From Escherichia coli (GTDB lineage: Bacteria; Pseudomonadota; Gammaproteobacteria; Enterobacterales; Enterobacteriaceae), in assembly GCF_001677475.2 (NCBI RefSeq), contig NZ_CP015229.1: 64,000 bases of DNA. The stretch is one strand, 5' to 3'. A program made the translations under genes and the position numbers. Of the stretch, positions 19,885 through 21,488 are shown piece after piece. Each line of letters opens with the position of its first letter. The first letter of the stretch is position 1. The notes under the pieces were generated by a model. It searched no databases and was not told where the DNA came from. It saw nothing but the letters and a program-made list of their open reading frames with translations.

Positions 19885-19916
19885 TTTCAATGCCGGGTTT
19901 AAGCCCGGCATTGTTT

Positions 19917-20798
19917 TTATCCCGGCAAAAAACACTCTTCAACACACTGAATAAAAGTGTGCATCGCCGGGCTAACCGCTTTTCCAGCATGGTGTGCGCA
20001 CATTGCTGTAATCGTCTGCGACTGTTCGCCAAAAGGCAATTCGATTAACTCGCCGCTCGCCAATTCTTTTGCTACCGCAAAGCGCGGCAGGTAGCTGACC
20101 CCGATATTCGCCGCGACACAACGCTTGATGCTTTCGATACTTATAAGCTCAATGGTGTTTTCCACCGTGATCCGCCGCTGTCGCAGCGTGCTCTCAAATA
20201 TCTGCCGGAAGACACATTGCGGTTCATTGATAATAAAACTACAGGCGTTATGTATTCCCGGCTCAGTAAAATCGACATCTTTAATTTGCGGTGAAGCCAC
20301 CAGCACCAGTGATTGTTCACCCAACTCTCGTCGGTTCAGAGCATCATCATTCCCTACGCGATAAAAGACGCCAACATCGGCCTCATCATTCAGTAGCGCA
20401 TCACGGATCACGTAACAGTTCAGAGACTGCAACGATAAACGCACTTTTGGTGCGCGTTGCCGAAAACGCTGCAACACCTGCGGCATTCGGTAAGAAAGCA
20501 ACGTTTCGCCTGAAACAACGCGTAGTTCCCCGTCCGGATCCGACTCTTTTTTGGCAGCCTCACGAAGGGTATCCATCACTCTGGTGAGTTCATAAATGTG
20601 CGGCAGCAGCTTTTTTCCTTCGCGGGTAAGGCACATTCGTCGACCAATTTTCTCAAATAACTGGACTGAGAACTCCTGCTCAAGCTGCTGAATATGAAAA
20701 GTCACCGTCGATTGTGTGCAGCACAATTTTTGCGAAGCTCGCAAGAAGGAACCCTCTTCCATCACGGTTTTAAGCGTAATAAAACGGCGCAGATCCAT
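19917..20798 (-). CDS. yfiE: LysR-type transcriptional regulator
   Basis: 293 aa from MDLRRFITLKTVMEEGSF; LTTR HTH; divergent from eamB. Confidence 0.9.
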   Translation of the reverse strand: MDLRRFITLKTVMEEGSFLRASQKLCCTQSTVTFHIQQLEQEFSVQLFEKIGRRMCLTREGKKLLPHIYELTRVMDTLREAAKKESDPDGELRVVSGETLLSYRMPQVLQRFRQRAPKVRLSLQSLNCYVIRDALLNDEADVGVFYRVGNDDALNRRELGEQSLVLVASPQIKDVDFTEPGIHNACSFIINEPQCVFRQIFESTLRQRRITVENTIELISIESIKRCVAANIGVSYLPRFAVAKELASGELIELPFGEQSQTITAMCAHHAGKAVSPAMHTFIQCVEECFLPG

Positions 20799-20900
20799 AA
20801 CCCCAAACCTATCGAAAATATCGAATTTAGAATGTAAAAACATTCATTTTTTTTAATGTTACGTGTCGGGTACTGTCTACCAAAACAGAGGAGATAACAA

Positions 20901-21488
20901 GTGACACCGACCCTTTTAAGTGCTTTTTGGACTTACACCCTGATTACCGCCATGACGCCAGGACCGAACAATATTCTCGCCCTTAGCTCAGCCACAACGC
21001 ACGGATTTCGTCAGAGTACTCGCGTGCTGGCAGGGATGAGTCTGGGATTTTTAATCGTCATGTTGCTATGCGCGGGAATTTCGTTTTCACTGGCTGTTAT
21101 CGACCCGGCAGCAGTGCATCTGTTGAGTTGGGCGGGGGCGGCATATATTGTCTGGCTGGCGTGGAAAATCGCTACCAGTCCAACAAAGGAAGATGGGCTT
21201 CAGACAAAACCAATCAGTTTTTGGGCCAGCTTTGCTTTGCAGTTTGTGAACGTCAAAATCATTTTGTATGGCATTACAGCACTGTCGACGTTTGTCCTGC
21301 CGCAAACGCAGGCGCTAAGCTGGATAATTGGCGTCAGCGTTTTGCTGGCGATGATTGGGACGTTTGGCAATGTGTGCTGGGCGCTGGCGGGGCACCTGTT
21401 TCAGCGATTGTTTCGCCAGTATGGTCGCCAGTTAAATATCGTGCTCGCGCTGCTGCTGGTCTATTGCGCGGTACGCATTTTCTATTAA
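20901..21488 (+). CDS. eamB: cysteine/O-acetylserine exporter (LysE/RhtB family)
   Basis: 195 aa with GTG start; multi-TM LysE-type profile; matches recalled EamB (YfiK). Confidence 0.92.
   Translation: MTPTLLSAFWTYTLITAMTPGPNNILALSSATTHGFRQSTRVLAGMSLGFLIVMLLCAGISFSLAVIDPAAVHLLSWAGAAYIVWLAWKIATSPTKEDGLQTKPISFWASFALQFVNVKIILYGITALSTFVLPQTQALSWIIGVSVLLAMIGTFGNVCWALAGHLFQRLFRQYGRQLNIVLALLLVYCAVRIFY

What the first reader, a model, noticed from the sequence alone, without database searches (positions are those of the whole stretch)
20799..20900. Divergent LysR regulator (yfiE) and exporter (eamB) with a dyad in the shared promoter
The classic divergent LTTR/target layout; the intergenic region contains AATGTAAAAACATT (palindromic AATG...CATT around an A-tract), a plausible LTTR-box-like site. 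The regulatory link between YfiE and eamB is not established as far as I know.
Basis: inference. Interest (0 to 1): 0.12.

Follow-up and report, generated by a model that had tools for sequence, protein, structure and literature searches.

The report
Known yfiE–eamB promoter; dyad not conserved
This is the ordinary E. coli yfiE–eamB divergent promoter, where binding of the LysR regulator YfiE has already been published.

Summary
The window is E. coli chromosome (srmB–yfiE–eamB–grcA–ung). The layout is as described: yfiE on the minus strand (19917–20798), eamB on the plus strand (20901–21488), and a 102-bp shared region between them. The palindrome is real and slightly longer than reported: GAATGT-N4-ACATTC, 20830–20845.

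It is not special:
- An inverted repeat this good turns up in 23–37% of shuffles of the region.
- Its geometry is not the LysR-type T-N11-A.
- 47% of 5,425 complete E. coli genomes, K-12 included, carry GAATAT in the left arm.
- Across 22 diverged Enterobacterales and Aeromonas orthologues the left arm is barely above neutral (0.66 against 0.52). The right arm is nearly invariant (0.96) because it belongs to a larger conserved block.

The conserved architecture is a different set of elements:
- ATCGAAA-N3-T-N-GAA (20811–20825), a true T-N11-A box.
- AAAACATTC plus a T-tract (20837–20854).
- A TAnnnT −10 element (20871–20876), present in 22 of 22 taxa.
- The ribosome-binding site.

All four keep gap-free spacing to the eamB start codon.

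The claim that the YfiE–eamB link is "not established" is outdated. ChIP-exo (Gao et al. 2021) found YfiE bound in this region. The effect on transcription and the inducer are still unknown.

The parts
19917..20798 (-). yfiE, LysR-type transcriptional regulator (293 aa; annotated ATG at 20798)
   Evidence: ORF list. RefSeq annotation of matching E. coli records. Pfam HTH_1 4e-17 and LysR_substrate 2.5e-44; no NCBIfam equivalog cut-off reached. The N-terminus MDLRRF… is conserved in all orthologues.
20901..21488 (+). eamB (yfiK), cysteine/O-acetylserine exporter of the LysE/RhtB type (195 aa, GTG start)
   Evidence: NCBIfam NF007653 equivalog at 410 bits against a cut-off of 193; Pfam LysE PF01810.
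20799..20900 (.). Shared 102-bp yfiE–eamB intergenic control region (the finding's coordinates)
   Evidence: The spacer is 102–113 bp in 37 orthologous loci. The alignment is gap-free from the ATCGAAA box to the eamB start.
20830..20845 (.). The left arm (20830–20835) is variable; the right arm (20840–20845) is conserved.
   Evidence: I2. Chance level. K-12 has GAATAT. E. coli splits 2,704 to 2,549. Conservation is 0.66 for the left arm and 0.96 for the right. Complementarity per orthologue.
20811..20826 (.). Box 1, ATCGAAAATATCGAAT: conserved ATC-N9-GAA / T20812-N11-A20824 dyad (TCGA-N5-TCGA). Proposed YfiE recognition site, centred about −65 from the predicted eamB start.
   Evidence: Direct repeat TATCGAA ×2. 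ATC, T20821 and A20824 are invariant in 39 of 39 sequences. Mean top-base frequency 0.81 against a neutral 0.52. It directly abuts the converted ChIP-exo interval. Its function is inferred.
20837..20854 (.). Most conserved block of the region: AAAACATTC followed by a T-tract, about −46 to −29. Proposed activation-site / −35 region.
   Evidence: ACATTC 0.96 and T-tract 0.84 top-base frequency. Alignment. Its role is inferred.
20839..20860 (.). Second dyad, AACATT-N10-AATGTT (AACATTC-N8-GAATGTT in Serratia, Rahnella and Symbiopectobacterium).
   Evidence: I4. It scores 6/7 in Escherichia and Citrobacter and 6–7/7 in Serratia sp. H1w, S. marcescens, both Rahnella and both Symbiopectobacterium. 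There are two symmetric C>T/G>A double changes (L006, L034), but Serratia sp. PL17 scores 4/7 and symmetry is poor in Klebsiella and Aeromonas. The profile of 20842–20857 read inverted is the best non-self match to Box 1, at 0.505 against a background of 0.284±0.074.
20871..20876 (+). Predicted eamB −10 hexamer, TACTGT (TAnnnT). It implies a transcription start near 20883.
   Evidence: TAnnnT at this aligned position in 22 of 22 diverged taxa, the only such position on either strand. The simple consensus scan found no strong σ70 promoter, which fits an activator-dependent promoter. No experimental start site was available.
20889..20893 (+). eamB ribosome-binding site, AGGAG, 7 nt before the GTG
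   Evidence: top-base frequency 0.86.
20779..20812 (.). Published YfiE ChIP-exo interval, converted to window coordinates. Listed as 2713323–2713356 in NC_000913.2 numbering, which is 2715301–2715334 in NC_000913.3.
Evidence: Gao et al. 2021 supplementary dataset. The coordinate system was inferred because all four YfiE sites are intergenic only after the .2→.3 shift. Sequence.
20827..20834 (.). Two linked SNPs (T/C at 20827, G/A at 20834) that define the two major E. coli haplotypes. 20834 lies in the dyad's left arm.
   Evidence: Almost all sampled genomes that do not match a query exactly differ from it by exactly 2 of 54 bases.

Best explanation
The region is the LysR-type control region of the conserved yfiE–eamB sensor/exporter pair.

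Shown:
- YfiE occupies this region in vivo (published ChIP-exo).
- The divergent gene pair and the exact spacing of the control region are conserved across Enterobacterales and Aeromonas.
- Four plus-strand blocks are under constraint: Box 1 ATC-N9-GAA (a T-N11-A), AAAACATTC plus a T-tract, a TAnnnT hexamer, and the ribosome-binding site.

Inferred:
- TACTGT (20871–20876) is the eamB −10 element, with a transcription start near 20883 and a poor −35 (a T-tract).
- A YfiE tetramer binds Box 1 as its recognition site at about −65. Its second dimer contacts the AAAACATTC/T-tract region at about −45 to −30.
- YfiE activates eamB when an unknown ligand, plausibly an exported cysteine-pathway metabolite, shifts that contact. 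It also autoregulates yfiE.

Its right arm is part of the conserved activation-site block. Its left arm is weakly constrained sequence that happens to complement the right arm in the ancestral Escherichia allele, and one base was lost in the lineage that includes K-12.
For: Gene identities and layout.

In vivo binding: PMC8464067, read. The peak has signal/noise 12.5, and this site carries no 'bound by RNAP' flag in glucose M9.

Synteny: 37 loci in 12 or more genera keep the divergent yfiE–eamB pair with a 102–113-bp spacer.

Constraint. Top-base frequencies in 22 diverged taxa are Box 1 0.81, ACATTC 0.96, T-tract 0.84, −10 element 0.81 and SD 0.86. Codon third positions of the same genes give 0.52–0.53, and the unconserved parts of the region give 0.51–0.57.

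Promoter. TAnnnT is present in 22 of 22 taxa only at 20871 on the plus strand. That places the Box 1 centre (20818) at −65, the textbook position for an LTTR recognition site (established knowledge of the LTTR family).

Other support. The YfiE recognition-helix region (CCTQSTVTFHIQQLEQE) is almost invariant in the same taxa. The region 20842–20857 read inverted is the best non-self match to the Box 1 profile. Symmetric double substitutions occur in the AACATT/AATGTT dyad.

Against: - No transcription start site for eamB or yfiE could be retrieved, so all −65/−45/−35 positions rest on a predicted −10 element. The consensus promoter scan found nothing.
- The converted ChIP-exo interval (20779–20812) overlaps only the first two bases of Box 1 and is centred on the yfiE start codon. 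Either its borders are imprecise or YfiE contacts DNA that I did not find conserved.
- The other three YfiE ChIP-exo sites have no Box 1-like sequence.
- A neural-network motif model could not be trained on YfiE ChIP-seq data.
- The only perturbation study found, CRISPRi of yfiE, reports dhaKL and gldA and more than 300 other genes. It does not mention eamB.
- Similarity between Box 1 and the inverted second box is only about 3 SD above an AT-rich background.
- No conserved −10 element for yfiE was found on the minus strand.
Confidence: 0.6

Rival explanations
1. One reading: GAATGT-N4-ACATTC (20830–20845) is itself the YfiE operator (LTTR box), bound by a YfiE dimer.
For: It is a perfect 6-bp-arm palindrome in the window. 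It is perfect in five of the seven Escherichia-genus sequences compared (window, E. albertii, E. whittamii, clade strains E1V33 and MOD1), but not in MG1655 or L006, and it is perfect in Cedecea neteri. Its centre at about −45 from the predicted start could correspond to an LTTR activation subsite. Its right arm is the most conserved hexamer in the region.
Against: - The left arm is near neutral (0.66 against 0.52). Mean complementarity is 4.15 of 6, falling to 1–3 of 6 in Serratia, Rahnella, Kluyvera and one Klebsiella-labelled strain (BIGb0407), although YfiE's recognition helix is unchanged there.
- No compensatory change occurs. Where the right arm becomes ATATTC, the left arm does not follow (L006, L022, L034).
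- 47% of E. coli genomes carry a mismatch.
- The palindrome is 16 bp and even in length, not T-N11-A.
- It is at chance level in shuffles.
- The ChIP-exo interval ends 18 bp short of it.
Confidence: 0.08
2. The left arm matters on the other strand. Read on the minus strand it is TACATT (TATATT in K-12), a −10-like hexamer for yfiE. On this reading the palindrome is a by-product of a yfiE promoter overlapping the YfiE/eamB activation site, and the G/A polymorphism tunes yfiE expression.
For: TACATT in the window and TATATT in K-12 (5 of 6 to TATAAT) at 20836→20831 on the minus strand. A start near 20824 would give a 26-nt leader and would place Box 1 at +1 to +12 of yfiE, a classic autorepression geometry for this family (inference).
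Against: TAnnnT is present at this position in only 5 of 22 taxa. No acceptable −35 lies 16–18 bp upstream (my reading). The consensus scan found no promoter. No start-site data were available.
Confidence: 0.15
3. The conserved AAAACATTC/T-tract block, and with it the dyad's right arm, serves something other than YfiE. Candidates are an UP-element-like A/T tract, intrinsic DNA curvature, or a site for another regulator such as Lrp or SdiA. On this reading YfiE binds only near its own start codon.
For: The ChIP-exo interval is yfiE-proximal. A- and T-tracts are typical of curvature and UP elements. An sdiA deletion lowered eamB mRNA 2.4-fold in an avian pathogenic strain (PMC11311028). The loosely defined Lrp consensus matches 10 of 15 positions by eye (from memory, not a test).
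Against: - The block co-occurs with yfiE in every locus and keeps rigid spacing to Box 1 and the −10 element.
- Specific bases (C20841, A20842, T20843, T20844, C20845) are more conserved than codon second positions, which a purely structural A/T tract would not need.
- No SdiA box (AAAAG-N8-GAAAA, consensus from memory) is present (my reading).
Confidence: 0.12
4. The palindrome acts as an RNA or DNA hairpin, in a leader or as an attenuator.
For: It can form a 6-bp stem with a 4-nt loop on either strand.
Against: The free energy is −5.1 to −5.2 kcal/mol, with z-scores of −1.1 and −1.8; 29 and 9 of 200 shuffles fold at least as well. There is no covariation. It lies upstream of the predicted eamB start.
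Confidence: 0.02

Closest known systems
LysG–LysE of Corynebacterium glutamicum (LTTR divergently transcribed from a LysE-superfamily amino-acid exporter and activating it in response to the exported substrate)
   Same: A LysR-type regulator (HTH_1 plus LysR_substrate) sits next to and divergent from a LysE-family exporter (PF01810), with a short shared control region. The pair is conserved as a unit across genera.
   Different: YfiE is not an ArgP/LysG-family member: NF002964 scores only 60 bits against a cut-off of 197. EamB belongs to the RhtB branch and exports O-acetylserine and cysteine. No activation and no inducer have been shown for YfiE.
E. coli y-gene LTTR/transporter pairs characterised by the same ChIP-exo study (YdhB=PunR–PunC, YnfL–YnfM)
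   Same: Each has a divergent LTTR–transporter layout with a single ChIP-exo peak in the shared region. YfiE–eamB is listed alongside them.
   Different: PunR has a demonstrated activator function and ligand context. For YfiE only binding is published. YfiE also has three other peaks (dhaK/dhaR, yffQ, tnaB/mdtL).
Canonical LTTR operator architecture (recognition site with T-N11-A near −65 plus activation sites near −45/−35, as for BenM/CatM, CbnR and NodD ATC-N9-GAT)
   Same: Box 1 is ATC-N9-GAA with T-N11-A. It is centred at −65 from the predicted start, and a second conserved block spans the −35 region of a promoter with a poor −35.
   Different: The positions rest on a predicted −10 element. 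The second site is very A/T-rich and only weakly dyad-symmetric in several genera.
CysB regulon control of cysteine metabolism
   Same: A LysR-family regulator, with a cysteine and O-acetylserine theme.
   Different: YfiE is a distinct protein: the CysB-family model scores 74 bits against a cut-off of 402. Nothing read here links eamB to CysB.

Membership tests
LysR-type transcriptional regulator (YfiE) | N-terminal LysR-type winged HTH plus C-terminal LysR substrate-binding domain, about 300 aa | tested here: met
   Pfam HTH_1 residues 3–62 (4e-17) and LysR_substrate residues 87–288 (2.5e-44); 293 aa. PDB relatives are full-length LTTRs: CbbR-like 5y2v, CatM, BenM, OxyR. No NCBIfam equivalog cut-off is reached, so YfiE is its own uncharacterised subfamily.
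EamB (YfiK) cysteine/O-acetylserine exporter, LysE/RhtB superfamily | Match to the curated equivalog model above its cut-off | tested here: met
   NF007653 at 410 bits against a cut-off of 193; Pfam LysE PF01810. The transport function comes from the literature (Franke et al. 2003, as summarised in PMC10821248) and was not tested here.
Divergent LTTR–target gene pair | Regulator and target transcribed divergently from a short shared region, conserved as a unit | tested here: met
   The spacer is 102 bp in the window. The arrangement is kept in 37 loci from Escherichia, Citrobacter, Klebsiella, Kluyvera, Cedecea, Yersinia, Serratia, Rahnella, Symbiopectobacterium, Providencia and Aeromonas.
   GAATGT-N4-ACATTC is a 16-bp even palindrome, giving T-N8-A and T-N4-A.
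   Left arm 0.66 against a neutral 0.52–0.53; right arm 0.96. Mean complementarity is 4.15 of 6. K-12 and 47% of E. coli genomes have a mismatch.
LTTR box (recognition site): Box 1 20811–20826 | T-N11-A geometry, conserved, located near −65 of the target promoter | tested here: inconclusive
   Geometry is met (T20812…A20824; ATC-N9-GAA). Conservation is met (ATC, T and A invariant in 39 of 39). The −65 position depends on a predicted −10 element, with no mapped start site.
LTTR-controlled promoter | Physical binding of the regulator to the shared region | not testable with these tools
   Published ChIP-exo peak for YfiE between yfiE and eamB (PMC8464067). The interval converted here is 20779–20812. 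No footprint at base resolution is available.
LTTR-controlled promoter | Regulator-dependent, ligand-responsive transcription of the target | not testable with these tools
   No expression data linking YfiE to eamB were found. The CRISPRi study does not mention eamB.

The most novel reading that the evidence does not exclude
YfiE–EamB is an ancient, rigidly spaced sensor/exporter module found from Enterobacterales to Aeromonas. Its operator is the pair of inverted boxes found here (ATCGAAA-N3-T-N-GAA at −65 and its degenerate inverted copy over the −35), and its ligand is still unidentified. In addition, the common G/A polymorphism at 20834, roughly 50:50 in E. coli and derived in the K-12-type lineage, alters either the YfiE activation-site contact or a yfiE −10 element. 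E. coli lineages would then differ heritably in how they control export of cysteine and O-acetylserine.
Probability: 0.15. Interest if true: 0.3.

Novelty: already known. Interest (0 to 1): 0.08.

Why it matters
It matters little as a discovery. The genes, their layout and YfiE binding in the shared region are all already in the literature, and the highlighted palindrome is not the functional unit.

The useful by-product is a concrete operator and promoter model for an uncharacterised E. coli regulator: Box 1 at −65, the AAAACATTC/T-tract block, and a −10 element at 20871–20876. No motif for YfiE has been published in the papers I could read. That makes footprinting, reporter assays and inducer screens for the eamB exporter easy to design. 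The exporter is of some interest for industrial cysteine production.

Tried and rejected
- **RNA hairpin.** Folding gave −5.1 to −5.2 kcal/mol, with z-scores of −1.1 and −1.8. Rejected.
- **Consensus σ70 and terminator scan of 20650–21050.** Nothing was found. I replaced it with a conservation-based −10 search.
- **Box 1-like motif at the other three YfiE ChIP-exo sites** (dhaK/dhaR, yffP/yffQ, tnaB/mdtL). No convincing match: the best score was 2.0 bits against 26 for the true site. K-12's region and the dhaK/dhaR site share the 8-mer AATGTTCC, but I estimate about 0.4 such coincidences by chance. Not pursued.
- **ChIP-exo coordinates taken at face value.** In NC_000913.3 the listed interval falls inside srmB. 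All four YfiE sites are intergenic only in NC_000913.2 numbering, while the YeaM sites in the same file are in .3 numbering. I therefore converted by +1978, an offset taken from my recollection of the sequence-version differences. It is consistent with the 1977-bp length difference and with the four sites.
- **By-eye comparison of the dyad with known operators** (Fur, ArgR ARG box, TyrR box, PurR, CRP, SdiA). Spacing or bases do not fit. These consensus sequences are from memory and are leads only, not tests.
- **Franke et al. 2003 (PMC142868).** Not held in the library, so the original description of the yfiK region could not be read.
- **Minus-strand −10 element for yfiE.** None is conserved; the best position has 7 of 22 taxa.
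- **Not run.** I did not run a metagenome pattern scan for the composite motif.

Full report
**What is there.** The window is E. coli chromosome. A 501-bp query across the finding matches 5,425 of 5,426 complete E. coli genomes, always under "yfiE: LysR family transcriptional regulator" and "eamB: cysteine/O-acetylserine transporter". The local gene order is trmN–srmB–yfiE–eamB–grcA–ung–yfiF. yfiE occupies 19917–20798 on the minus strand. eamB occupies 20901–21488 on the plus strand with a GTG start. The region between them is exactly the finding's 20799–20900, 102 bp and 32% GC. YfiE has the LysR HTH and LysR substrate-binding domains but reaches no curated equivalog threshold. EamB matches its equivalog model at 410 bits against a cut-off of 193 and is a LysE-type translocator.

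**The observation.** AATGTAAAAACATT is at 20831–20844 and extends to a perfect inverted repeat with 6-bp arms, GAATGT-AAAA-ACATTC, at 20830–20845. It is one of three overlapping 6-bp-arm inverted repeats in this A/T-rich stretch. The others are TAAAAA/TTTTTA and AACATT/AATGTT.

It is not statistically remarkable. In 5,000 dinucleotide-preserving shuffles of the 102 bp, at least one perfect 6-bp-arm repeat appears in 37% of cases with spacers of 0–12, and in 23% with spacers of 0–6. The window as a whole averages 0.54 per 102 bp.

Its geometry is that of an even, 16-bp palindrome (T-N8-A). It is not the 13-bp T-N11-A that defines LysR-type boxes.

As RNA it would be a weak hairpin, at −5.1 to −5.2 kcal/mol with z-scores of −1.1 and −1.8.

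**Conservation within E. coli.** K-12 MG1655 reads GAATAT…ACATTC, so one arm position is broken. Two 54-nt queries covering 20800–20853 were run against all complete genomes. The window's haplotype (T20827, G20834) is exact in 2,704 of 5,425 genomes. The K-12 haplotype (C, A) is exact in 2,549. In the sampled listings nearly all other genomes differ from either query by exactly two bases. The window type includes O157:H7, O55:H7 and O25b:H4 strains. The K-12 type includes laboratory K-12 derivatives and bovine strains. E. albertii, E. whittamii and the cryptic Escherichia clades have G, so the perfect palindrome is ancestral in the genus and has been lost in about half of sequenced E. coli.

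**Conservation between genera.** A scan of species-representative genomes with YfiE returned 40 loci. In 37 of them an eamB orthologue lies divergently upstream, with a spacer of 102–113 bp. These include Escherichia, Citrobacter, Klebsiella, Kluyvera, Cedecea, Yersinia, Serratia, Rahnella, Symbiopectobacterium, Entomohabitans, Providencia and Aeromonas. The alignment of these regions is gap-free from an ATCGAAA box all the way to the eamB start codon. Length variation is confined to the yfiE-proximal dozen bases.

Top-base frequencies in 22 mutually diverged sequences are as follows:

| Segment | Top-base frequency |
|---|---|
| Codon third positions of eamB and yfiE (neutral baseline) | 0.52–0.53 |
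| Unconserved parts of the region | 0.51–0.57 |
| Codon second positions (for comparison) | 0.91–0.94 |

Arm-to-arm complementarity averages 4.15 of 6. It drops to 1–3 of 6 in Serratia, Rahnella, Kluyvera and a Klebsiella-labelled strain, and nothing compensates when the right arm changes to ATATTC.

**What is conserved instead.** Four plus-strand blocks stand out:

1. ATCGAAAATATCGAAT (20811–20826, frequency 0.81). ATC, T20821 and A20824 are invariant in all 39 sequences. This is ATC-N9-GAA with T20812-N11-A20824 and the internal dyad TCGA-N5-TCGA, so it has genuine LysR-box geometry.
2. AAAACATTC followed by a T-tract (20837–20854; frequencies 0.96 and 0.84).
3. TACTGT (20871–20876). A TAnnnT hexamer sits here in 22 of 22 taxa, the only position on either strand with that property.
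4. AGGAG, 7 nt before the GTG.

If block 3 is the eamB −10 element, transcription starts near 20883. This is the standard layout of a LysR-activated promoter, with a recognition site near −65 and an activation site over −45 to −35 (established knowledge of the family). The consensus scan found no strong σ70 promoter, which fits an activator-dependent promoter.

Two weaker observations suggest that the second block is a degenerate inverted copy of Box 1:

- The profile of 20842–20857 read in reverse complement is the best non-self match to the Box 1 profile, at 0.505 against 0.284±0.074.
- The dyad AACATT-N10-AATGTT (20839–20860) becomes AACATTC-N8-GAATGTT in Serratia, Rahnella and Symbiopectobacterium. 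It shows symmetric C>T/G>A double changes in two lineages (L006, L034), although symmetry is poor in Klebsiella and Aeromonas.

**What is already known.** The statement that a YfiE–eamB link is not established is out of date. Gao et al. 2021 (NAR 49:9696; PMC8464067) tagged YfiE and found four ChIP-exo sites. [quoted passage not shown]

The listed interval, 2713323–2713356, falls inside srmB in NC_000913.3. All four YfiE sites become intergenic only if read in NC_000913.2 numbering, whereas the YeaM sites in the same file are in .3 numbering. After conversion the interval is 2715301–2715334, which is window 20779–20812. That site, unlike the other three, is not flagged as RNA-polymerase-bound in glucose minimal medium.

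Much is not known:

- No motif has been published. A neural-network model failed on YfiE ChIP-seq data.
- The other three sites lack a Box 1-like sequence.
- The only perturbation data, CRISPRi of yfiE, report dhaKL and gldA and more than 300 other genes without mentioning eamB.
- No inducer is known.
- SdiA has been reported to raise eamB mRNA 2.4-fold in an avian pathogenic strain.

**Most likely mechanism.** Binding and conservation are shown; the rest is inferred. A YfiE tetramer recognises Box 1 at −65. Its second dimer contacts the AAAACATTC/T-tract region over the weak −35. On ligand binding it repositions to activate eamB, and it autoregulates yfiE from the same complex. The exporter's substrates, O-acetylserine and cysteine, or related metabolites are the obvious candidate ligands, by analogy with LysG–LysE. 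I give this model about 0.6.

The weak points are the absence of a mapped start site, the offset of the ChIP-exo interval, and the absence of any expression evidence for eamB.

The rivals are:

- The left arm as a yfiE −10 element on the minus strand (TACATT in the window, TATATT in K-12). It is conserved in only 5 of 22 taxa (about 0.15).
- The conserved block serving curvature or another regulator (about 0.12).
- An RNA hairpin (about 0.02).

**Verdict.** This is an ordinary, already described LysR/exporter control region. The specific palindrome is real in this strain, but it is chance-level, polymorphic and not conserved, and its novelty claim is superseded. The small positive result is a phylogenetic footprint that proposes where YfiE and RNA polymerase act. 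It can be tested directly with the footprinting, start-site mapping and reporter experiments listed under next steps.

Noticed in passing
window 19885–19916 (against L001 1610–1817): The srmB–yfiE spacer is only 32 bp here and holds a single hairpin (GCCGGGTTTAAGCCCGGC), presumably a shared bidirectional terminator. K-12-type genomes have 208 bp, in which two REP-like palindromic units lie between duplicated copies of that hairpin.
   Followed up: partly
window 19917–21488: eamB is 92.9% and yfiE 95.5% identical in nucleotides to K-12. The flanking genes are closer: srmB 98.6% and grcA 98.4%. Only 252 of 5,425 genomes are ≥99% identical over 20600–21100, and 4,086 fall in the 90–95% band. This is unusually deep allelic divergence for a core E. 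coli locus and could reflect old alleles or recombination.
   Followed up: partly
window 20827 and 20834: Two linked intergenic SNPs split E. coli almost evenly: T/G in 2,704 genomes and C/A in 2,549. The O157:H7, O55:H7 and O25b:H4 strains listed carry the window type, and K-12 and several bovine strains carry the other. Outgroups have G at 20834.
   Followed up: yes
window 20799–20843: The longest mechanical ORF for yfiE starts at an ATG at 20843, inside the palindrome, and would add 15 residues (MFLHSKFDIFDRFGV). This stretch is not length-conserved in the orthologues, which all begin at MDLRRF, so the annotated start at 20798 is the real one.
   Followed up: yes
loci L039, L043, L041, L038: The pair looks degraded in some genomes. 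yfiE matches in two or three frames in E. albertii NBRC 107761 (L039) and Symbiopectobacterium 'North America' (L043). yfiE is fragmented, with only a C-terminal eamB remnant, in Providencia burhodogranariea (L041). In P. alcalifaciens (L038), eamB matches in two pieces and yfiE is truncated at residue 242. These could be pseudogenes or assembly errors.
   Followed up: no
literature: PMC8464067 supplementary dataset (YfiE against YeaM site lists): Binding-site coordinates in the same supplementary file use different reference versions. YeaM sites fit NC_000913.3 and YfiE sites fit only NC_000913.2. Taken at face value, the YfiE/eamB peak falls inside srmB.
   Followed up: yes
L005 (NC_000913.3 1250945–1250980, dhaK/dhaR intergenic): The YfiE ChIP-exo site at dhaK/dhaR contains the palindrome ATGTTTCA-TAG-TGAAACAT and has no Box 1-like sequence. 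CRISPRi of yfiE is reported to raise dhaKL, so YfiE may recognise a different sequence there or be recruited indirectly.
   Followed up: no
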